From Escherichia coli (GTDB taxonomy: Bacteria; Pseudomonadota; Gammaproteobacteria; Enterobacterales; Enterobacteriaceae), in NCBI RefSeq assembly GCF_009931435.1, contig NZ_CP043414.1: a stretch of 64,000 bases of DNA; one strand, 5' to 3'. The notes under the pieces were generated by a model, which saw only the letters and a list, made by a program, of their open reading frames with translations, did not search any database and was not told the DNA's origin. This document shows, piece after piece, positions 15,917 to 53,279 of this stretch; positions within the stretch are counted from its first letter, which is position 1, and every line of letters begins with the position of its first letter. Position numbers and translations under genes: made by a program.

Positions 15917-17757
<1,841 letters not shown>

Positions 17758-40047: not shown

Positions 40048-41001
40048 TTATTTGTTGAGCTGGAACAGCGACAATCCCTGCATATCGGTAAATGCTTTAT
40101 ACGATGCCTGCAATGCCGTTTGCTGCATGATGTAAGATGAAATAGTTGCATTCCAGTCCACATCAACCAGATCGCTCATCTGCTGCGTTTGCCCTAAAGC
40201 GCGATCGCTACCTAATGAATCCAGCGACTCCAGTTCGTTCAGCTGCGTGCCTAATTCCGCGCGAACGGTCAGCACATTATTCAGCGAATTTTTCAGTCCG
40301 CGGTTGGTTTTATCCAGTGTCGCAGCGGCGGTTTCTTTATCCGCTTCGCTATCCGCGACCGGCGTTTTCAGGGCTGCGATGGCGCTATCCAGCATGGCAA
40401 AAAGATTGGTTTCAGAAGCGCTACCGTCTGGTTCCGCTACCGCGTTGCTGGTAATACTGTCGAAAATTTTGTCACCCGTGTGCCCTATCACCATCGAACG
40501 CGAAGCATCGACCTGTTGTTTAATACTTTCTGCTCCGCCAACATATTCGCCGTCTGCCTCACTAAACGGCGCAGTTTCTGTTTTATAACCGGCAAAAATG
40601 TAGCGCCCGTTACCGTCAGTGGTGTTCGCCAGATTCAGCAACTGGTCACGAAGCCCCTGAATATCCGTAGCCAGTGAGGCCCGGTCATCGTCACTCAAGG
40701 TGCCATTGCTGGCGTAGACAATTTTTTCCTGAGCATTCTGGATAGCAGTGGTGACCTGGCTAAGCACACTCTCTTCCAGTGACACTTTTTGAGTGGCGAA
40801 AGTACGCGCCAGCGTGTACTGACTGTTTTGCGCCTGTGCCTGGGAGAGAACAACAGCTTGTGATGCAGCAATGGGATCATCTGAAGGGTTAACGACTCGC
40901 TTACCCGTCGACATCTGTTCGCCGTACTTCATCCATTCTGCCTGAGAATTGGTGATGCCACGCATGTTTTGCTGGTACATCATCTGGGTACTGAAACGCA
41001 T
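40048..41001 (-). CDS. flgL: Flagellar hook-associated protein 3 (HAP3)
   Basis: 317-aa ORF MRFSTQMMYQQNMRGITNSQAEW... Confidence 0.92.
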   Translation of the reverse strand: MRFSTQMMYQQNMRGITNSQAEWMKYGEQMSTGKRVVNPSDDPIAASQAVVLSQAQAQNSQYTLARTFATQKVSLEESVLSQVTTAIQNAQEKIVYASNGTLSDDDRASLATDIQGLRDQLLNLANTTDGNGRYIFAGYKTETAPFSEADGEYVGGAESIKQQVDASRSMVIGHTGDKIFDSITSNAVAEPDGSASETNLFAMLDSAIAALKTPVADSEADKETAAATLDKTNRGLKNSLNNVLTVRAELGTQLNELESLDSLGSDRALGQTQQMSDLVDVDWNATISSYIMQQTALQASYKAFTDMQGLSLFQLNK

Positions 41002-41012
41002 TTTATCTCCCC

Positions 41013-42656
41013 TTAGCGAATGTTAATCAGCGCATCAAAAATCGCGTTTGCCGTCTGCAGAACCTGCGCATTCGCCAGGTAATACTGCTGAAAACGTTGC
41101 AAATTTCCGTACTCCTCATCGAGATTGACACCGGAAATCGACTGCTGCTGATTGGAAAGCTGCGTCACCACATTACCTTGCGTGGCGCTACTGGTTTTCA
41201 ACGTCGCGGTTTTATTACCGATATCACTCACTAACGATGCATAAGCATCGTTAAAGGATTTCGCACCGCCCACCGTTTTACTGTTGCTTTGCAGATCCAG
41301 CAGGGCCTGACCGTTGCGGTTGTCGCTATCACCCGCATCTTCTTCGCTCGCCATGGCGATTTTCGCTTCGTCAGTGATTAATACATCCATGTTGACGATG
41401 GCGTCACTTACCGGTTTCAGCGTGAAGCTGTCGTTAACGGCAGGCGTTCCTGTAAACGTCAACTCCAGACCATCAAATGCCACTTTACCGTTGGCATCCG
41501 GCGCCACCGTAAAAGTGGTATTGCTGGCAAGGCGGGTGACCTGCCACTGATTATTATCGAACGAGATTTTGTAATCTGTCGCCAGTACCGCGGAGGCATC
41601 AGTTACCGTTGCACCGATCGCAACGCCACCATTGTTGTTAGTATTTTGCAGAACCGCGGGCTTACCGATAGCAAAGAAATCCTCCCCTTCTTTACCATTG
41701 GCATCATACCCCTTGTTATGTTGGGCATTGAAAGCCTCGGCAAATGCCAGCGCCAGTTGTCCGAGCGTATTACGCGTCTGGTCGAGATCCTGAGAACGAA
41801 ATGTCAGAATACCGCCCAGTGACCCGGTATTCAGCAATTTCTCCGGGATCTCAAGATTGCCCGCAGTCCCATCAACATAAGCGACAGTCGTACGAGAAGG
41901 GTCGGCGCTGGAAGGAACTGCCGCCAGCTGCCGCGCCGTACTACCCTGAACCAGTGAGTAGCCATTGGCCATCGTGATGTTATAAGTGCCACCATCCTGA
42001 ACGCTGACTTCTACGCCAACAATCTGGTTTAATTCGCTCACCAGTTGATCGCGTTGATCCAGCAGATTGTTAGGTGACGCCCCTGCCCCCACGCCTGTCA
42101 GGCGGGAGATCTGATCGTTCAGGCTGGCGATTTGTTTAGCGTAATTGTTGATCTGATCAACGCTGGCACCTATCGCGATATTGACCTGTTTGTCCTGGTC
42201 GCGCAGATATTGATCGGTGGTTTTAAACTGATTCACCAACCCTTCTGATTTCCCAATCAGCGCCTGGCGTGCTGCCGGGTCTTCCGCGTTACTTACCAGC
42301 GTTTGCAGGCTGGTGAAGAAATCCTGCATCTGTGTTGCCAGCGAAGAGGTACTGGTGGAGAGCATATTGTCGATTTTCGACATCTGCTCATAGCGGGCAG
42401 TCAGGCCGCTACTTTGCGTCTGCGCAGCACGTAACTGGTTGGTAATAAACGCATCATACTCACGCTGCACACCAGAAACGTAGACGCCATTGCCAACCCA
42501 GCCACCCGCGCCCAACGTGCTGTTGGCCTGCGCCATAATAGTGGTTTGGCGGGTATATCCGGCAACGTTATAGCTGGAAATATTATTACTTGCCGTATTT
42601 AACGCCGCCTGAGCCGCGTTCAGTCCGCTCATGGCGTTATTGATCAAGCTGGACAT
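41013..42656 (-). CDS. flgK: Flagellar hook-associated protein 1 (HAP1)
   Basis: 547-aa ORF MSSLINNAMSGLNAAQAALNTASNNISS... Confidence 0.92.
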   Translation of the reverse strand: MSSLINNAMSGLNAAQAALNTASNNISSYNVAGYTRQTTIMAQANSTLGAGGWVGNGVYVSGVQREYDAFITNQLRAAQTQSSGLTARYEQMSKIDNMLSTSTSSLATQMQDFFTSLQTLVSNAEDPAARQALIGKSEGLVNQFKTTDQYLRDQDKQVNIAIGASVDQINNYAKQIASLNDQISRLTGVGAGASPNNLLDQRDQLVSELNQIVGVEVSVQDGGTYNITMANGYSLVQGSTARQLAAVPSSADPSRTTVAYVDGTAGNLEIPEKLLNTGSLGGILTFRSQDLDQTRNTLGQLALAFAEAFNAQHNKGYDANGKEGEDFFAIGKPAVLQNTNNNGGVAIGATVTDASAVLATDYKISFDNNQWQVTRLASNTTFTVAPDANGKVAFDGLELTFTGTPAVNDSFTLKPVSDAIVNMDVLITDEAKIAMASEEDAGDSDNRNGQALLDLQSNSKTVGGAKSFNDAYASLVSDIGNKTATLKTSSATQGNVVTQLSNQQQSISGVNLDEEYGNLQRFQQYYLANAQVLQTANAIFDALINIR

Positions 42657-42689
42657 GGAGGTTCCTTATAAGCCTTCAATTACAGAGTA

Positions 42690-42716
42690 TTATCGGCAGC
42701 GACACGCCGGACTTGA
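42690..42716 (-). promoter_or_regulatory. Candidate sigma28 (class 3) promoter for flgKL
   Basis: Minus strand reads tcaagtcc-N11-GCCGATAA: perfect sigma28 -10 element, 5/8 match at -35, about 35 nt upstream of the flgK ATG. Confidence 0.45.
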
Positions 42717-42721
42717 GTTAT

Positions 42722-43663
42722 TCAGAACAGATTATCAATGTTCATGCTGTAGGTTTTGCTCACCTTGTCGCTTATCGATTTCATCTGCTGAATCATGCTG
42801 GTGAGTTTGCGGGCATAGTGAGGATCGGTGGCATAGCCCGCGTCCTGTAGGGCCTGCGCCCCCTGCTCCGCACTCGCGGCGGTCGTCACGGCAGCGTAGC
42901 GCGGGTTACGTGTTAATAGCCCAACGTAATCCGACAATGCTTCCAGATACGAGCTGTAGACCCGAAACTTCGCTTTTACTTTCTTCGCTTCGCCATTTTC
43001 ATATTCAGTCGTGGTGATTTCAGTGACTGGCCCTTTCCAGTTGCCAGAGGCTTTGACGCCAAACAGGTTATAGCTCGGCTCGCCGTTTTCACGGCGGATT
43101 TGCCGTTGTCCCCAGCCAGATTCCAGCGCCGCCTGAGCGAGGATCAAATGATGTGGCACACCGCTTTGCTGGCTTGCCAGTTGGGCGGGCAACGAGAGTT
43201 GCGCGAGGAATGCTTTACTGTCACCCGGCAGCGAATCATCGTAGTTACGTGGTACGGCCTTTTGCACCAGCTGCGAAAGCGTCTGATTTTGATAACGCAC
43301 CACGGTTTCGAGCGGGAATTTCATCGGTGCTGCTGGCGTGGACTCCTCTGGCGATGGTTGTTCTGGCGTCATCTGTTTAACCATCATCTCTGCCAGCCCC
43401 AGACCTTTGCCCGCCGTCATCTGTTGGGCAATCTGCTGGTCATACATACTGGTATACAGGCGAGTGTGCTCGCTGCTGAACAGGCCATCTTTTGGTAAAG
43501 CGTCGCGCATGCTTTTCAACATCATCTGCACGAACATCCCTTCCACCTGGCGGGCCACCGGACGGATATTTGCCGCCGGATCTTCGCCCGCTTTCGCCTT
43601 AAGTTCGTTGAGCGATTGTGCATCCCAGGCCGCACTTGCCAGTAGTTTGCTGTCGCTGATCAT
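42722..43663 (-). CDS. flgJ: Flagellar rod-assembly protein / peptidoglycan hydrolase FlgJ
   Basis: Start at internal ATG ([22 protein letters not shown]) gives 313 aa; its ATG shares a nucleotide with the flgI stop (TGATG). Confidence 0.9.
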   Translation of the reverse strand: MISDSKLLASAAWDAQSLNELKAKAGEDPAANIRPVARQVEGMFVQMMLKSMRDALPKDGLFSSEHTRLYTSMYDQQIAQQMTAGKGLGLAEMMVKQMTPEQPSPEESTPAAPMKFPLETVVRYQNQTLSQLVQKAVPRNYDDSLPGDSKAFLAQLSLPAQLASQQSGVPHHLILAQAALESGWGQRQIRRENGEPSYNLFGVKASGNWKGPVTEITTTEYENGEAKKVKAKFRVYSSYLEALSDYVGLLTRNPRYAAVTTAASAEQGAQALQDAGYATDPHYARKLTSMIQQMKSISDKVSKTYSMNIDNLF

Positions 43664-44760
43664 CAGATGATTTCCAGTTTTGCCCGCAGACATCCCGCAC
43701 TTTGCATTGATTGCAGTATGGACATCAGATCCATCGGCGTAGCGCCCAGCGCATTGAGCGCACGCACCACGTTATTGAGGCTGGCGCTGGAACGTACGCT
43801 TTGCAGCGAACCGCCGCTCTGGCGTAAATCGATCTGCGTCTGTGGAGTAACCACAGTCTGCCCGCCACCAAACGGTGTATCTGGCTGGCTGACATTGGCC
43901 TGCCGATTTACCGTAACCGAGAGATTCCCCTGCGCTACCGCGCAGCTGTCGAGGGTCACTTCGCGATTCATCACCACCGAACCAGTGCGCGAGTTAATCA
44001 CTACTTTAGCGTCCTGCGGGGAGACATTAACCTGCATATTCTGGATATCGGCAAGGAAACGGACCTGGGAACTGTTGCCACTCGGTACGCGCACCTGAAT
44101 AGTCCGCGCATCTAACGCGGTGGCGCTGCCATATCCACGCACGCGGTTGATGGTGTCAGCGATTTGCTGCGCCATACTGAAATCTTCGTCGTTAAGTTGC
44201 AAATTAAGGGTATTCCCGACGCCAAACTGGCTGGGCAATTCACGTTCAATAACCGCACCATTGGTGATCCGTCCACCGTTCAGTTGGTTCACCTGAACAC
44301 TGCTACCGCCAGCGGAGGCCCCTGCGCCGCCAACCAGAATATTGCCCTGTGCCAGCGCATACACCTGACTGTCAACGCCCTTAAGCGGTGTCATCAATAA
44401 CGTACCGCCACGCAGACTTTTGGCATTTCCCATGGAAGAAACCACCACGTCAATGGTTTGCCCCTGACGTCCAAACGGTGGAAGTGACGCCGTCACCATT
44501 ACCGCAGCGACGTTTTTTAGCTGCATATTAGTGCCCGTCGGAACGGTAATTCCCAGCTGTGAGAGCATGTTATTAAGCGTTTGTGTGGTAAACGGCGTCT
44601 GAGTTGTCTGGTCACCGGTGCCATCCAGCCCCACCACCAGGCCATAGCCAATCAGTGAGTTTTGCCTTACCCCCTGAACACTGGTGAGATCGCGAATACG
44701 CTCAGCCTGAGCTGCCGTGATAACCAGTAGAAGAATTAATGCAGAGAGAAATTTAATCAC
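43663..44760 (-). CDS. flgI: Flagellar P-ring protein
   Basis: Signal peptide; start placed at the second of two tandem GTG codons to give 365 aa. Confidence 0.9.
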
Positions 44761-44771
44761 CACAGCCTCAC

Positions 44772-45470
44772 TTACATTGGCGACAGGTTAAGGAAGAAAC
44801 GCTGCAACCAGCCCATATTTTGCGCTTCGTTAATGTAGCCATTGCCTACGTATTCAATGCGCGCATCCGCCACCTGAGTAGACGGTACGGTATTACTGCC
44901 GCTGATGGTGCGAGGATTAACTACACCAGAGAAGCGAATAAATTCGGTACCCTGATTAATGGCGATCTGTTTTTCACCCACCACATGCAGGTTGCCGTTG
45001 ACCAGTACCTGGTCAACCGTCACCGTCAACGTGCCGCTAAAGGTATTGCTGGCATTGGCCCCGCCTTTTCCGTTGAACGTGTTGCCACCAGAGGCTTCGA
45101 CATCGGCACGAGCGTTACCAAACAGCCCCTGCAAATAGCGCGGCACAGTATCAAAGCCAAAATTAGTTTTACCGTCACGGCTGGCATTCGCAGAGGAGCT
45201 TTTGCTGGCGCTGACGTTCTCCTGCAACACGATGGTCAGCGTATCGCCAATATTGCGTGGTCGACGATCTTCAAACAGCGGTTGATAGCCATAGTTAATC
45301 GGCTGAGCAGACTGGAAAATAGAACCGTTGGCGACGGGCGTCGGACCGGGAACCGGTTGTGCACTGGTCGCCCCCTGTACCAGCGGCGTGGAGGGTATCC
45401 AGGCGCAGCCGGTTAGTGAAAGCACCAACAAGCTGGAAATGGCATAAGTATGCGCAGCGTTTTTTTGCAT
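44772..45470 (-). CDS. flgH: Flagellar L-ring lipoprotein
   Basis: Start at internal ATG ([22 protein letters not shown], lipobox LTGC) gives 232 aa. Confidence 0.9.
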
Positions 45471-45522
45471 GGCTATCATCTTCAAAAATCAGTAACCCGG
45501 TGAATCTGCCACCGGTTATGCC

Positions 45523-46323
<801 letters not shown>

Positions 46324-46350
46324 TTATTGACAAAATGCATATGTCTTCAT

Positions 46351-46384
<34 letters not shown>

Positions 46385-46475
46385 AAGGTATAGAAAAATC
46401 AATAAATTGCGATGTACCCCGTAGACCGATAAGTTTGCACACCGGGCAACTTACGTTTGTCATGTATCCGTTCAA

Positions 46476-47231
46476 TTAACTCATCGACAGCAGTTGGTTG
46501 GCACGGCCTGCGTTATCATCGACGCTGCTGATCACCTTCATCTGCATTTCAAAACGCCGCGCGCTGGCAATCATGTCGCTCATTGCCGCAACGGCATTGA
46601 CGTTACTGCCTTCCAGAACCCCCGACATCACACGTAAGGTTGGATCTGCCTGCAGTACCGGCCCACGCGTAGCCTGGCTTTCTGCGCTTAAACGAAAAAT
46701 GCCGTCGTCACCGCGCTGCACTTCGCTGCCCGTGGCTTTCACCAGCTTCAGACGCCCCACTGGTGCAACCGTATTTGCCGGATCGCCAGAATTCAGCGCT
46801 GAGATTGTGCCATCGGCAGCAACAGTGATTTCCGCCCCTTCCGGCACAGCAATTGGCCCCGCCTCGCCGATCACCGGATGCCCCTGAATTGTCAGTTGCC
46901 CGGTGGGATCAACCTGAATGCTGCCATTACGCGTATACCCTTCGCTACCGTCATCGGTCTGCACGGCCAGCCAGCCGTCCTGCTGCAACGCGACGTCCAG
47001 CGGGCGCGAGGTGTAATCCATCTTACCGGGCGTCATGTCAGCACCCGGTGTTGACGCCGTAACCAGCGTGCGCGTGGGTAGTGAAAGCCCTTCCACCGGC
47101 ACTGCACGCAAGGCGTTTAACTGTGCGCGAAAACCGGGCGTAGAGGCATTGGCCAGATTACTGGCGGTCACCGCCTGTTGATTCAGCGTCTGGCTGGCTG
47201 CCCCCATCGCGGTATAAATTGCGTGATCCAT
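46476..47231 (-). CDS. flgF: Flagellar proximal rod protein
   Basis: 251-aa ORF MDHAIYTAMGAASQTLNQQAVTASNLANASTPGFRAQ... Confidence 0.92.
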   Translation of the reverse strand: MDHAIYTAMGAASQTLNQQAVTASNLANASTPGFRAQLNALRAVPVEGLSLPTRTLVTASTPGADMTPGKMDYTSRPLDVALQQDGWLAVQTDDGSEGYTRNGSIQVDPTGQLTIQGHPVIGEAGPIAVPEGAEITVAADGTISALNSGDPANTVAPVGRLKLVKATGSEVQRGDDGIFRLSAESQATRGPVLQADPTLRVMSGVLEGSNVNAVAAMSDMIASARRFEMQMKVISSVDDNAGRANQLLSMS

Positions 47232-47250
47232 TGAGCTATCCCGTCAGCGA

Positions 47251-48456
47251 TTAGCGTAAGTTAACCAGCGTGTTGAGGATCTGGTCCTGGGTTTTGATGG
47301 TCTGGGCGTTAGACTGATAGTTACGCTGGGCAACGATCATATTGACCAGTTCTTTGCTGAGATCGACATTGGACGCTTCCAGCGCACCGTTGGTCAGGGT
47401 GCCAAAGTTGCCCGTCCCGGCTGTCCCCAACAGCGCCACGCCAGAAGATTGCGTCGCAGACCAGACGTTGTCGCCTTCGGATGCCAGACCTTCGTTGTTG
47501 GCAAAGTTCGCCAGTACAATCTGCCCCAGCAGTTGGGTTTGTTCGTTGGAATAGTTGCCGACAACCGTACCGTCATCATTGATTTGATAACTCACCAGAT
47601 CGCCCGGTTTGTAGCCGTTCTGGGTGGTTGCCACAATGTTGTTAGCACCGGTATTTTGCTGCATGGAGTTGAGGAAGCTCAGGCTAAACGTGGCGGGATC
47701 TGCGCCGTTAATTGCTCCGGTGGTAATATCCTTTGTTGGATCTGAGGTCAGAACGCCATTGGCATTAAACACCAGCGTCGTTGCAGGGTTAGCTGTGCCT
47801 TTTGGATCACTGCTATCCAGGGTGTAAACATCCCAGTTATTATCCCCGGTCTTCACAAAATAAACGCTCATATCATGAGCATTACCCTGACTATCGAAAA
47901 CAGTCACCGAACCTTTTTTGTTATAGCTATCCGCATTGCTGGCATCGAATCCTTTAACAGAGGGAAGCGGATCACTGGAATTCAGGTTGATCTGCATCGA
48001 CGCCGTGGTGGTAGTTTTCGCTGCCATCAGGGTATTCGGGATCGAAATATTGGTCGGATTCGCCCCTTGTTGAATAGTCGGCGGCGTACCGGTTGCCGGA
48101 TACCCCGTCAGCTGTAATCCTTGCATGTTCACCAGGTTACGATTTTCATCAAGCTTAAATTGTCCATTACGGCTGTAAAAAACCGAACCATTGCTGTCTA
48201 CCAGACGGAAAAAACCATTCTGGCTGATAGCAACGTCCAGACCTCGCCCGGTGTTGGTGGTCGTGCCATCGGTAAAGTCCTGAGTGATACCGGCAACTTT
48301 TACCCCCAGTCCCACTTTCGAACCGGCAAACATATCGGCAAAAGAGGCCGTGCCTGATTTAAAGCCGTAGGTGGCGGAGTTGGCGATATTGTTGCCAATA
48401 ACATCGAGGTTGGTGGCGGCAGCGTTTAATCCGCTAACCGCTTGAGAAAAGGCCAT
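47251..48456 (-). CDS. flgE: Flagellar hook protein
   Basis: 401-aa ORF MAFSQAVSGLNAAATNLDVIGNNIANSATYGFK... Confidence 0.92.
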   Translation of the reverse strand: MAFSQAVSGLNAAATNLDVIGNNIANSATYGFKSGTASFADMFAGSKVGLGVKVAGITQDFTDGTTTNTGRGLDVAISQNGFFRLVDSNGSVFYSRNGQFKLDENRNLVNMQGLQLTGYPATGTPPTIQQGANPTNISIPNTLMAAKTTTTASMQINLNSSDPLPSVKGFDASNADSYNKKGSVTVFDSQGNAHDMSVYFVKTGDNNWDVYTLDSSDPKGTANPATTLVFNANGVLTSDPTKDITTGAINGADPATFSLSFLNSMQQNTGANNIVATTQNGYKPGDLVSYQINDDGTVVGNYSNEQTQLLGQIVLANFANNEGLASEGDNVWSATQSSGVALLGTAGTGNFGTLTNGALEASNVDLSKELVNMIVAQRNYQSNAQTIKTQDQILNTLVNLR

Positions 48457-48481
48457 GACTGACTCCTGAAATTTGAGGGCT

Positions 48482-49177
48482 TTAAATTATCTGCCGTACT
48501 TCGTCGAGGGTGGTGGTGCCGTAAGTGCCGAGATCCAGCGTATTACCGTTGTTGCCGCGGATCACACCCTGCACCAGAGCAAACTGCAGCGGCTGGGCAA
48601 CCAGTTGTGTACCACCGCTACTGGCGCTAATCGCTACATTGTAAGAACCGTTCGGCGCAGTGCTGCCGTCAGTCAACGTACCGTCCCAGGTGAAACTGTG
48701 GACTCCGGCAGTCAGTTCACCGATATCAATGGTACGGACAACCGCGCCGTTTTTATCGGTGATGGTGGCCGTAACTTTGTCTGCCGCCTGCTGCAACTCA
48801 ACACCAAACGGTGTGGTCGTGGTCACAGCCCCTTCTTCACTGCCGGTTCCGGCAAGAACTGTGGTGCCGGGGATCATCACACCGTGACCGATCAGGTTAC
48901 TGGCCTGTAACGACTGGCTGTTATCAATCTGTCCGGAAATAGATCCGAGCGTGGTATTGAGTTTTTCAATCCCGCTGACCGTGCTGATTTGTGCCAATTG
49001 CGACGTCAGCTCGTTGTTTTCCATTGGATTGGTCGGGTCCTGGTTTTTCAGCTGCGCCACCAGCAAAGTCAGAAAACTGCTTTGTAAATCTGCGGCGTTG
49101 CTACCCGTGAGTGAGCTACTGCTGGTGGTGCTGACGCCGGTATTTGTCGGATCGGTGGTGGTTACCGCAATGGACAT
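48482..49177 (-). CDS. flgD: Flagellar hook-capping protein
   Basis: 231-aa ORF at the conserved position between flgC and flgE. Confidence 0.9.
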   Translation of the reverse strand: MSIAVTTTDPTNTGVSTTSSSSLTGSNAADLQSSFLTLLVAQLKNQDPTNPMENNELTSQLAQISTVSGIEKLNTTLGSISGQIDNSQSLQASNLIGHGVMIPGTTVLAGTGSEEGAVTTTTPFGVELQQAADKVTATITDKNGAVVRTIDIGELTAGVHSFTWDGTLTDGSTAPNGSYNVAISASSGGTQLVAQPLQFALVQGVIRGNNGNTLDLGTYGTTTLDEVRQII

Positions 49178-49188
49178 AGATTTCTCCT

Positions 49189-49593
49189 TTATTGACCAAG
49201 CGTAAGGGTTTTCAGCATCATGCTTTTCACCGTGTTGAGCACTTCAACATTGGCCTGATAGCTGCGTGACGCCGACATGGTGTTAACCATCTCGCCGACA
49301 ACATCAACGTTTGGCATTTTCACGTAGCCCTTTGCATCCGCCAGCGGATTACCCGGTTCATAAACCAGTTTGTCCGGAGCCTGACTTTCTATAACATCGG
49401 CAACCTTTACGCCGCCTGTCGCAGCGCCTGGCGCAGCGTTCACCTGGAATACCACCTGTTTTGCCCGATATGGCTGTCCATCGGGACCGGTCACGCTATC
49501 AGCATTCGCCAGATTACTGGCCGCCACATTCAGGCGCTGGGACTGGGCAGTTAACGCCGACCCGGCGATATCAAAAATGTTCAGCAGTGCCAT
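49189..49593 (-). CDS. flgC: Flagellar proximal rod protein
   Basis: 134-aa [36 protein letters not shown]... Confidence 0.92.
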
Positions 49594-49596
49594 CCG

Positions 49597-50013
49597 TTAA
49601 TTTCCGCTCTGTAAAACGTTCATCATGCCTTTGATTTGCCCGCTCAACGCGCTAAGGCTCATCTGGTATTGCAGGCTGTTATCGGCAAACTGAGTGCGTT
49701 CGCGATCCATATCGACGGTATTACCGTCCAGCGAAGGCTGGTCCGGAATACGGTATTGCAGTTCTGCGGTAGGAGGCGTCAGCGCCTGCGCCGGAATGTG
49801 TTGCGTTGAGGTCATCGTCAGCGCAACCATGCTGGTTTCATCCCGTCCACGCTGCATGACCTTTTTAAGTTCACTGGCAAAATCGATATCGCGTGCCTGA
49901 TAACCAGGGGTATCGGCATTGGCGATGTTTGCTGCCAGCACTTCCTGACGCTGGGCGCGCAGATTGAGCGCCTCTTGTTGAAAACGTAAGGCGGCGTCGA
50001 GCTTATCGAGCAT
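49597..50013 (-). CDS. flgB: Flagellar proximal rod protein
   Basis: 138-aa [45 protein letters not shown]... Confidence 0.92.
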
Positions 50014-50167
50014 ATCTCCTCCGCAAGTATCAAAATTCTGCCATCAGCTTAAATGCCTTTACGCGCGCGTTATCGGCGGAATAAACGCAAAATGGGTCGC
50101 TATTTATGCCGTTGATGGTCATTGCGTACAGGTACAATTCACGTTGTAGAAATGGCTGGGAGCGAAA
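50014..50167. promoter_or_regulatory. Divergent flgB / flgA class 2 (FlhDC-dependent) promoter region
   Basis: 154-bp gap between divergent flgB and flgA; the FlhD4C2 box itself is not resolved. Confidence 0.5.
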
Positions 50168-50827
50168 ATGCTGACAATAAAACGTAGCGTGGCGATCATT
50201 GCGATACTGTTCAGTCCGTTAAGTACGGCGAGCAATCTCACATCGCAGTTACAAACCTTTTTTAGCGCCCAGCTCGCGGGAGTAAGTGATGAGGTTCGTG
50301 TTTCTATTCGTACATCGCCCCATCTACTTCCGCCGTGCGAGCAACCACTGCTTTCGATAAGCAATAATTCCCGCCTGTGGGGAAATGTGAATGTGCTGGC
50401 ACGCTGCGGTAACGACAAACGATATTTGCAAGTCAATGTACAGGCCACAGGAAATTATGTGGTTGCCGCGATGCCCATTGTGCGGGGAGGAAAGCTGGAA
50501 GCTGGCAATGTAAAACTGAAACGCGGACGACTGGACACCTTGCCGCCGCGTACTGTGTTGGATATCAATCAACTTATTGATGCCGTTAGCCTGCGCGATC
50601 TATCACCCGAACAACCTATCCAATTAACCCAGTTGCGCCAGGCCTGGCGTGTAAAAGCGGGACAACGCGTCAACGTGATCGCCAACGGTGATGGATTTAG
50701 CGCCAACGCTGAAGGTCAGGCGTTGAACAATGCTGCCGTCGCACAGAATGCGCGGGTGCGCATGGTATCGGGACAGGTGGTCAGCGGCGTTGTTGATGCA
50801 GATGGGAATATTCTTATAAACCTGTAA
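50168..50827 (+). CDS. flgA: Flagellar P-ring assembly chaperone
   Basis: 219-aa ORF with signal peptide. Confidence 0.9.
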   Translation: MLTIKRSVAIIAILFSPLSTASNLTSQLQTFFSAQLAGVSDEVRVSIRTSPHLLPPCEQPLLSISNNSRLWGNVNVLARCGNDKRYLQVNVQATGNYVVAAMPIVRGGKLEAGNVKLKRGRLDTLPPRTVLDINQLIDAVSLRDLSPEQPIQLTQLRQAWRVKAGQRVNVIANGDGFSANAEGQALNNAAVAQNARVRMVSGQVVSGVVDADGNILINL

Positions 50828-50831
50828 GCTG

Positions 50832-50858
50832 TTAAAGATTACCCGACCCATGCCGATA
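50832..50858 (+). promoter_or_regulatory. sigma28 (FliA) class 3 promoter for flgMN
   Basis: TAAAGATT-N11-GCCGATAA: 7/8 match at -35, perfect -10, exact 11-nt spacer, about 45 nt upstream of the flgM ATG. Confidence 0.75.
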
Positions 50859-50902
50859 AATAAGCAACACATGATAAAAGCGCCCTCAATGAGGAATAAA
50901 CC

Positions 50903-51196
50903 ATGAGTATTGACCGCACTTCACCTCTGAAGCCCGTAAGCACCGTTCAACCGCGTGAAACCACTGACGCGCCGGTAACGAATACCCGGGCGGCAAAAAC
51001 AACCGCCGCCACCAGCACCAGTGTGACGTTAAGCGACGCGCAAGCAAAACTAATGCAACCCGGCAGCAGTGATATCAATCTTGAACGTGTCGAAGCGTTA
51101 AAACTGGCGATTCGTAACGGTGAACTAAAAATGGACACCGGCAAAATTGCCGATGCGCTAATCAACGAAGCGCAGCAAGACTTGCAGAGTAACTGA
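50903..51196 (+). CDS. flgM: Anti-sigma-28 factor
   Basis: 97-aa [28 protein letters not shown]... Confidence 0.92.
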
Positions 51197-51200
51197 TCGT

Positions 51201-51617
51201 ATGACGCGTCTTGCAGAGATCCTCGACCAGATGTCCGCAGTGCTTAACGATCTCAAAACAGTAATGGATCAAGAGCAGCAACATCTCTCAATGGGGCAGA
51301 TCAACGGCAGCCAGTTGCAATGGATTACAGAACAAAAAAGCTCACTGCTGGCGACGTTGGATTACCTCGAACAGTTACGCAGAAAAGAACCCAATGCAGA
51401 AAATAGCGTTGATATTAGTCAACGTTGGCAGGAAATTACGGTGCAAACTCAGCAACTACGTCAAATGAATCAACATAATGGCTGGTTACTGGAAGGACAG
51501 ATTGAGCGCAATCAACAGGCGCTGGAAATGTTAAAACCGCATCAGGAACCGACGCTGTACGGGGCGAACGGTCAGACATCAATACCCCATCGCGGCAGTA
51601 AAAAGATTTCGATCTGA
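51201..51617 (+). CDS. flgN: Flagellar export chaperone for FlgK/FlgL
   Basis: 138-aa ORF starting 4 nt after the flgM stop. Confidence 0.9.
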   Translation: MTRLAEILDQMSAVLNDLKTVMDQEQQHLSMGQINGSQLQWITEQKSSLLATLDYLEQLRRKEPNAENSVDISQRWQEITVQTQQLRQMNQHNGWLLEGQIERNQQALEMLKPHQEPTLYGANGQTSIPHRGSKKISI

Positions 51618-51626
51618 AGATTATCT

Positions 51627-51647
51627 CCGGCCTGCAGTGCAGGCCGG
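51627..51647. terminator. Palindrome in the flgN/murJ convergent gap, possible bidirectional terminator
   Basis: Near-perfect palindrome ccggcctgca-g-tgcaggccgg; no adjacent T/U run on either strand, so the function is uncertain. Confidence 0.35.
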
Positions 51648-51656
51648 AATGCATTG

Positions 51657-53279
<1,623 letters not shown>

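What the first reader, a model, noticed from the sequence alone, without database searches (positions are those of the whole stretch)
42657..42721. Candidate internal class 3 promoter for flgKL
On the minus strand the flgJ-flgK gap reads tcaagtcc-N11-GCCGATAA: a perfect sigma28 -10 element with a partial -35. This would let the hook-associated proteins be expressed late, independently of the flgB operon.
Basis: partly seen in the sequence, partly recalled or inferred. Interest (0 to 1): 0.3.

Follow-up and report, generated by a model that had tools for sequence, protein, structure and literature searches.

The report
Known sigma-28 promoter of flgKL

Summary
On the minus strand, the 65-nt flgJ-flgK gap (42657-42721) reads TCAAGTCC (42716-42709), an 11-nt spacer, then GCCGATAA (42697-42690).

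The gap matches the E. coli K-12 flgJ-flgK gap at every base but one, a spacer base (G to T at 42704). The K-12 site is a published FliA ChIP-seq peak assigned to flgKL, with the tenth-highest occupancy score of 52. An independent ChIP-chip study found it bound by sigma-28 and RNA polymerase. A reconstituted system showed sigma-28 activating it in vitro.

In 12 Escherichia, Citrobacter and Salmonella-type sequences, both octamers and the 11-nt spacing never change. Nine of the 11 spacer columns and 30 of the 65 gap columns do change (P = 6e-6).

Published dRNA-seq in Salmonella 4/74 places a primary flgK start 24 nt upstream of the ATG. That is 9 nt past GCCGATAA in Salmonella-type sequence. 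The corresponding window position is 42680-42683.

The gap holds no terminator, so flgKL is also read through from the class 2 flgB operon. In K-12 that read-through supplies most flgK mRNA under standard conditions.

Verdict: a real feature, a correct interpretation, already known and of low interest. Sequence alone was only suggestive; position, conservation and published experiments settle it.

The parts
42709..42716 (-). -35 element TCAAGTCC of the flgKL class 3 promoter (5 of 8 matches to TAAAGTTT)
   Evidence: Read. Identical to the K-12 FliA ChIP-seq motif. Invariant in all 12 Escherichia, Citrobacter and Salmonella-type sequences.
42698..42708 (-). 11-nt spacer GGCGTGTCGCT; position 42704 carries T where K-12 and nearly all E. 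coli carry G
   Evidence: The length is 11 in all 12 sequences while 9 of 11 columns vary. Only 3 of 5,413 E. coli genomes match the whole window gap exactly.
42690..42697 (-). -10 element GCCGATAA (8 of 8 matches to consensus)
   Evidence: Invariant in all 12 sequences, together with the preceding CT.
42680..42683 (-). Predicted transcription start (G 42683, A 42681 or A 42680); inferred, not measured in this organism
   Evidence: The Salmonella 4/74 primary flgK TSS lies 24 nt upstream of the ATG, which corresponds to 42680. E. coli FliA promoters start 18-23 bp downstream of the motif centre (bioRxiv 10.1101/188474), which corresponds to 42684-42679.
42657..42679 (-). Short flgK 5' UTR with Shine-Dalgarno AAGGAA (42667-42662); also the flgJ-flgK intercistronic region of the class 2 read-through transcript
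   Evidence: Sequence. Highly conserved across genera. No terminator-like hairpin in the gap.
41013..42656 (-). flgK (hook-filament junction protein 1), first gene driven by the promoter
   Evidence: TIGR02492 equivalog, E = 4e-101. RefSeq annotation of matching genomes.
40048..41001 (-). flgL (hook-filament junction protein 2), second gene of the unit
   Evidence: TIGR02550 equivalog, E = 6.5e-105. Annotation.
39971..40048 (-). FlgO small RNA region (flgL 3' UTR) with the intrinsic terminator that ends the flgKL unit
   Evidence: 98% identical to the annotated K-12 flgO. Terminator hairpin 40006-39978 followed by a T run. FlgO is sigma-28-dependent and processed from the flgL mRNA according to PMC10578931.
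42722..43663 (-). flgJ, last gene of the class 2 flgB operon, whose transcript reads through the gap into flgKL
   Evidence: TIGR02541 equivalog. Annotation. RT-PCR across the flgJ-flgK boundary in K-12 is reported in PMC4183435.

Best explanation
The site is the class 3 promoter of flgKL. RNA polymerase carrying sigma-28 (FliA) recognises TCAAGTCC-N11-GCCGATAA and starts transcription about 7-10 nt downstream, at window 42680-42683. The product is a flgK-flgL mRNA with a roughly 24-nt leader that ends at the terminator after flgL. The FlgO small RNA is processed from its 3' UTR. FliA is held inactive by FlgM until the hook-basal body is complete and FlgM is exported, so this promoter fires late. 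The same genes are also transcribed earlier, because there is no terminator after flgJ and the FlhDC-dependent class 2 flgB transcript reads through the gap. Shown here: the motif, its position, its identity to the K-12 site, its conservation pattern, and the absence of a terminator or a sigma-70-like promoter in the gap. Taken from published experiments on near-identical or orthologous sequence: FliA and RNA polymerase binding, fliA dependence, in vitro activation, and the start site. Inferred: that the same events occur in the organism this window comes from.
For: The motif lies 33 nt upstream of the flgK ATG on the same strand. The gap differs from K-12 at one spacer base only.

Published evidence on the K-12 site:
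- It is a FliA ChIP-seq peak assigned to flgKL, score 47, tenth of 52.
- ChIP-chip regions SigF_10 (1137178-1137740) and RNAP_529 (1137528-1137878) cover it, and the supplementary-table row returned lists no sigma-70 region there.
- fliA overexpression in a strain lacking flhD restores flgK expression, and RT-PCR crosses the flgJ-flgK boundary.
- A flgK promoter fragment is strongly activated by sigma-28 in a reconstituted system.

Computed here:
- The leave-one-out weight-matrix score is 16.3 bits, twelfth of 25 bound sites.
- In 12 sequences from three genera, 0 of 16 element columns vary against 30 of 65 gap columns, hypergeometric P = 6e-6. Spacer length is always 11 and 9 of 11 spacer columns vary.
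- 5,413 of 5,426 E. coli genomes keep the gap at 90% identity or more. The sampled variants differ only in the spacer and the immediate flanks.
- The gap has no terminator-like or sigma-70-like site.
- All flg genes in the window are intact.

Salmonella 4/74: a primary flgK TSS at 1221586 lies 24 nt upstream of the ATG. Expression steps up from flgJ (65 TPM) to flgK (311) and flgL (292).
Against: Nothing was measured in the organism of this window, and fliA itself lies outside the window. The -35 element matches consensus at only 5 of 8 positions. Three other sites in the window score as well or better (27121+, 48779-, 17010-). They have the same or nearly the same sequence in K-12 but are not in the FliA ChIP-seq list, so motif score alone does not predict function. 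In K-12, deleting fliA reduces flgK only about 2.3-fold, so the promoter's contribution under standard conditions is modest. I could not read a flgK-specific E. coli start-site record, because Thomason 2015 and Wozniak 2010 are not held. The rare spacer T allele is untested.
Confidence: 0.95

Rival explanations
1. The motif is a chance sigma-28-like match with no promoter function, and flgKL is expressed only by read-through from the flgB class 2 promoter.
For: About 0.63 consensus-like sites with up to 3 mismatches are expected per window by chance. GCCGATAA occurs 11 times in the window. Three equally scoring sites in the window are not FliA-bound in K-12. A fliA deletion lowers flgK only about 2.3-fold.
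Against: Two independent studies show FliA and RNA polymerase bound at the near-identical K-12 site. Sigma-28 activates it in vitro. fliA overexpression restores flgK expression without FlhDC. Salmonella has a primary TSS at the expected distance. Both octamers are invariant while the spacer sequence varies.
Confidence: 0.01
2. The conserved blocks in the gap are kept for an RNA-level role in the read-through flgJ-flgK transcript, such as a ribosome-binding, processing or translational-control element, rather than for sigma-28 recognition.
For: The leader next to the ATG (GTAATTGAAGG...AAGGAAC) is also strongly conserved. The gap is transcribed as part of the class 2 mRNA.
Against: The pattern is two invariant octamers at a fixed 11-nt distance across a freely varying spacer. 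That is what bipartite DNA recognition by a sigma factor predicts, not a hairpin or a single-stranded RNA motif. The octamers equal the sigma-28 consensus elements and are bound by FliA in vivo. An RNA-level role for the downstream leader is compatible with the promoter and does not replace it.
Confidence: 0.02
3. The gap also, or instead, holds a weak FlhDC/sigma-70-dependent promoter for flgK.
For: A reconstituted transcription-translation study saw low but significant activation of a flgK promoter fragment by FlhDC (bioRxiv 10.1101/024604).
Against: The gap has no sigma-70-like -35/-10 pair. The ChIP-chip supplementary-table row returned for that region lists no sigma-70 binding region. The authors of the in vitro study say that a computational search they cite found no FlhDC site upstream of flgK. 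The extent of the fragment they used is not known to me.
Confidence: 0.03

Closest known systems
E. coli K-12 flgKL class 3 (FliA) promoter; motif at NC_000913.2 1137542-1137569, PMC4183435 Table 2
   Same: Same locus and same flanking genes. The -35 octamer, -10 octamer, 11-nt spacing, distance to the ATG and leader are identical.
   Different: One spacer base differs: G in K-12 and nearly all E. coli, T at window 42704. Only 3 of 5,413 genomes match the window gap exactly.
Salmonella enterica flgK class 3 promoter (Kutsukake and Ide 1995 and Wozniak et al. 2010, as cited in PMC4183435; TSS in PMC4643027)
   Same: Salmonella-type genomes have the same TCAAGTCC-N11-GCCGATAA. The dual class 2 and class 3 arrangement is the same. 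The primary TSS lies 24 nt upstream of the ATG.
   Different: The spacer sequence is ACGTCGTAGCT, differing at 7 of 11 positions. The -10-to-ATG distance is one base shorter (32 against 33 nt).
flgMN class 3 promoter inside flgA (window 50833-50860, + strand)
   Same: It belongs to the same regulon and has the same dual design, with a class 3 promoter nested in a class 2 unit. It was found by the same scans and is listed as a ChIP-seq site.
   Different: Its -35 element is much closer to consensus (TAAAGATT), giving 25 bits against 16 bits. It lies inside a coding sequence rather than in an intergenic gap.

Membership tests
Sigma-28 (FliA) class 3 flagellar promoter | Bipartite motif resembling TAAAGTTT-N11-GCCGATAA with 11-nt spacing | tested here: met
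   TCAAGTCC-N11-GCCGATAA matches 5 of 8 and 8 of 8 positions. The leave-one-out matrix score is 16.3 bits, twelfth of 25 bound sites. A 5 of 8 match in the -35 element is typical of the 52 published sites.
Sigma-28 (FliA) class 3 flagellar promoter | Located upstream of, and co-oriented with, a late flagellar or chemotaxis gene | tested here: met
   The -10 element ends 33 nt upstream of the flgK ATG on the same strand. flgK and flgL were identified by equivalog models.
Sigma-28 (FliA) class 3 flagellar promoter | Occupied by FliA-RNA polymerase holoenzyme in vivo | not testable with these tools
   Not measurable for this organism. The K-12 site, which has identical elements, is bound in ChIP-seq (score 47) and in ChIP-chip (SigF_10 and RNAP_529).
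Sigma-28 (FliA) class 3 flagellar promoter | Transcription depends on, or is activated by, FliA | not testable with these tools
   Published for K-12. flgK falls from 318 to 138 in a fliA deletion and is restored by fliA overexpression in an flhD deletion. Sigma-28 strongly activates the promoter in vitro.
Sigma-28 (FliA) class 3 flagellar promoter | Transcription start a few nucleotides downstream of the -10 element | not testable with these tools
   The Salmonella 4/74 primary TSS is 24 nt upstream of the flgK ATG, 9 nt after GCCGATAA in Salmonella-type sequence. I could not read a flgK-specific E. coli record.
Sigma-28 (FliA) class 3 flagellar promoter | Both elements and their spacing conserved among relatives while the spacer sequence is free to vary | tested here: met
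   Across 12 sequences from three genera, 0 of 16 element columns vary, 9 of 11 spacer columns vary and the spacing is always 11, P = 6e-6.
Overlapping class 2/class 3 unit (flgBCDEFGHIJKL with nested flgKL) | No terminator between flgJ and flgK, so class 2 transcripts read through | tested here: met
   No terminator-like hairpin on the minus strand in 42657-42721. The only strong one follows flgL at 40006-39978. RT-PCR across the boundary in K-12 is reported in PMC4183435.

The most novel reading that the evidence does not exclude
The non-consensus -35 octamer TCAAGTCC is strictly invariant across Escherichia, Citrobacter and Salmonella-type genomes. This might reflect selection for a deliberately sub-maximal promoter that sets the ratio of junction proteins (and the FlgO small RNA) to flagellin. 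The rare spacer T allele at 42704 might shift that strength. My evidence neither supports nor excludes this. Invariance of the three non-consensus positions alone is not statistically compelling.
Probability: 0.1. Interest if true: 0.2.

Novelty: already known. Interest (0 to 1): 0.05.

Why it matters
The finding matters little as a discovery. The flgKL class 3 promoter is one of the six or seven canonical FliA promoters of E. coli and Salmonella, described since the 1990s and mapped genome-wide in 2014. It is also a calibration point: three equally scoring sigma-28-like motifs in the same window are not bound in K-12, so motif score alone would over-call.

Tried and rejected
- Papers not held. 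I tried to read Wozniak et al. 2010 (PMC2937404) for 5' RACE starts and Thomason et al. 2015 (PMC4288677) for E. coli dRNA-seq starts. Neither is held.
- Cappable-seq TSS file (PMC4782308). It is cut before the flg region.
- Kim et al. 2012 TSS supplements. They contain no flgK entry.
- Cho et al. 2014 TSS table. It had no hit at the coordinates; the file is cut.
- Genome-collection scan with a degenerate flgK N-terminus pattern. It returned only 9 loci, all Escherichia or Citrobacter, because Salmonella FlgK has His at residue 7.
- Metagenome scan with the His variant. It returned one contig that begins 34 nt upstream of flgK and so lacks the promoter. Its FlgK sequence did allow an exact-protein look-up that recovered four genome loci with the full gap.
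- Rfam search of 39000-52000. Nothing reached gathering threshold.
- Rejected readings. The chance-motif, sigma-70 promoter and RNA-element readings are dealt with under rival explanations.
- Searches not run. I did not run the large protein-homology searches, because the answer did not depend on them.

Full report
**What is in the sequence**

On the minus strand the window carries flgJ (stop codon TGA at 42724-42722), a 65-nt gap (42721-42657) and flgK (ATG at 42656), followed by flgL (ORFs). NCBIfam equivalog models identify FlgJ, FlgK, FlgL and FlgI, and RNase E on the opposite strand. The gap reads ATAAC-TCAAGTCC-GGCGTGTCGCT-GCCGATAA-TACTCTGTAATTGAAGGCTTATAAGGAACCTCC.
- TCAAGTCC at 42716-42709;
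- an 11-nt spacer at 42708-42698;
- GCCGATAA at 42697-42690.

Against the sigma-28 consensus TAAAGTTT-N11-GCCGATAA (as printed in PMC2859248), this is 5 of 8 plus 8 of 8 with the canonical spacing.

**Is it more than chance?**

From sequence alone, only moderately.
- A consensus scan allowing three mismatches finds 3 sites in the window against 0.63 expected from shuffles.
- I built a weight matrix from the 24 strongly bound FliA ChIP-seq sites of Fitzgerald et al. 2014, leaving flgKL out. The site scores 16.3 bits, twelfth of 25 in leave-one-out ranking. Five sites in the window reach that score against 0.18 expected from a first-order Markov null.
- Exact GCCGATAA occurs 11 times on the two strands, so a perfect -10 is not remarkable in itself.
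- Three of the five high-scoring sites are in pabC antisense (27121+), in flgD sense (48779-) and in thiK upstream of nagZ (17010-). They have the same or nearly the same sequence in K-12 but are absent from the published list of 52 FliA-bound regions. Motif score alone would therefore over-call.

**Identity of the locus**

The region matches E. coli chromosomes over its full length, at best 98.8% identity across 16 kb. Gene order is that of K-12: flgN-M-A, flgB to flgL, rne. The gap differs from K-12 MG1655 at one position, the fifth spacer base (G in K-12, T at window 42704).

The K-12 sequence TCAAGTCCGGCGGGTCGCTGCCGATAAT is printed in Table 2 of Fitzgerald et al. 2014 (PMC4183435) as the FliA ChIP-seq motif for flgKL. 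Its fold-above-threshold score is 47, the tenth highest of 52. [quoted passage not shown] It also shows by RT-PCR that flgKL is co-transcribed with the FlhDC-dependent flgB operon.

Two independent lines agree:
- A ChIP-chip study lists a sigma-28 region (SigF_10, 1137178-1137740) and an RNA polymerase region (RNAP_529, 1137528-1137878) over the gap. The supplementary-table row returned lists no sigma-70 region there (PMC3923258 Table S2).
- In a reconstituted transcription-translation system, the flgK promoter showed "strong activation by sigma28" (bioRxiv 10.1101/024604).

**Conservation test run here**

I collected the flgJ-flgK gap from:
- K-12;
- two other E. coli, plus E. albertii, E. 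whittamii and Escherichia sp. E1V33;
- four Citrobacter;
- Salmonella-type genomes. I reached these through an exact-protein look-up of a FlgK about 98% identical to the PDB chains 9go6 and 2d4y. I call them Salmonella-type from my own knowledge that those entries are Salmonella; no tool reported the organism.

In the 12 aligned sequences:
- 30 of the 65 gap columns vary;
- none of the 16 columns of the two octamers varies (hypergeometric P = 6e-6);
- 9 of the 11 spacer columns vary;
- the spacer is 11 nt long in every sequence.

This is the pattern expected for bipartite recognition of DNA by a sigma factor. Within E. coli, 5,413 of 5,426 complete genomes hold the gap at 90% identity or more, nearly all with a single difference from the window. 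Two sampled divergent variants differ only in the spacer, the base before the -35 element and the second base after the -10 element.

**Start site**

I could not read an E. coli record specific to flgK. For S. Typhimurium 4/74, Dataset 3 of Srikumar et al. 2015 (PMC4643027) lists a primary TSS for flgK at 1221586 (+). flgJ ends at 1221545 and the flgK CDS starts at 1221610. That gives a 24-nt leader. In the Salmonella-type sequence, whose gap has the same 64-nt length, the start falls on the A of ATTGAAGG, 9 nt after the last base of GCCGATAA. The same tables show promoter usage at this TSS (657 TPM) comparable to that of flgB (600). Gene expression steps up from flgJ (65 TPM) to flgK (311) and flgL (292).

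For E. coli FliA promoters generally, starts lie 18-23 bp downstream of the motif centre (bioRxiv 10.1101/188474). Both rules place the start in this window at 42680-42684, most likely on A 42680, A 42681 or G 42683. It remains untested in this strain.

**How it works**

- FliA-RNA polymerase binds the two octamers and makes a flgK-flgL mRNA with a short leader that carries the Shine-Dalgarno AAGGAA (42667-42662).
- The unit ends at a strong intrinsic terminator after flgL (40006-39978).
- The flgL 3' UTR is 98% identical to the annotated K-12 small RNA FlgO. FlgO is sigma-28-dependent and processed from the flgL mRNA (PMC10578931).
- FlgM sequesters FliA until the hook-basal body is complete (PMC4183435 introduction), so the promoter is a late one.
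- The gap has no terminator-like hairpin and no sigma-70-like promoter. The class 2 flgB transcript therefore runs through it, which makes flgKL dual-regulated.
- In K-12 under the published conditions, deleting fliA reduced flgK only from 318 to 138, while fliA overexpression without FlhDC restored expression to wild-type or higher.
- Work in Salmonella, cited in that paper, links the class 3 promoters of flgKL and fliDST to swarming and the repair of sheared flagella.
- All flg genes in the window are intact. fliA lies outside the window.

**Verdict**

The feature is the already known flgKL class 3 promoter. The only peculiarity is a rare spacer allele with no expected consequence. Interest is low.

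Noticed in passing
window 50833-50860 (+): This is the strongest sigma-28 motif in the window, TAAAGATTACCCGACCCATGCCGATAAA (25 bits). It lies at the 3' end of flgA and across the short flgA-flgM gap, upstream of flgM. It corresponds to the published flgMN class 3 promoter of K-12 and differs at two spacer bases.
   Followed up: partly
window 39971-40048 (-): The flgL 3' UTR is 98% identical to the annotated K-12 small RNA FlgO and includes its terminator hairpin (40006-39978). Rfam has no model that reports it.
   Followed up: partly
window 48752-48779 (-), 27121-27148 (+), 16983-17010 (-): Three sigma-28-like motifs score as high as the flgK site: in flgD (sense), in pabC (antisense), and in thiK about 70 nt upstream of nagZ. 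Their sequences are the same or nearly the same in K-12, yet none is in the published FliA ChIP-seq list. The flgD site starts with C where T is critical, according to aer promoter mutagenesis.
   Followed up: partly
window 42704 (-) and the window as a whole: Only 3 of 5,413 complete E. coli genomes match the 65-nt gap exactly, which includes the spacer T at 42704. The best identity of a 16-kb stretch to any complete E. coli genome is 98.8%. The source is therefore a lineage poorly represented in that collection. Shigella, which the collection does not include, was not checked.
   Followed up: partly
whole window, both strands: Exact GCCGATAA occurs 11 times. By my own arithmetic, about 2 would be expected for equiprobable bases. 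Most copies lie inside genes, and the cause (codon or dipeptide usage, or something else) was not examined.
   Followed up: no
window 42657-42683 (-): The flgK leader (GTAATTGAAGG...AAGGAAC) is almost invariant across Escherichia and largely conserved in Citrobacter and Salmonella-type genomes. That is more than the Shine-Dalgarno sequence alone would need. Whether it carries an additional signal was not tested.
   Followed up: no
K-12 flgL (b1083), external data: PMC3923258 Table S7: In the wild-type versus rpoS-deletion expression table, flgL values differ by about 2 log2 units between the two groups of columns. flgH, flgI and flgJ do not differ, and flgK differs only slightly. I did not verify the column order or the cause; a probe overlapping FlgO is one possibility.
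   Followed up: no
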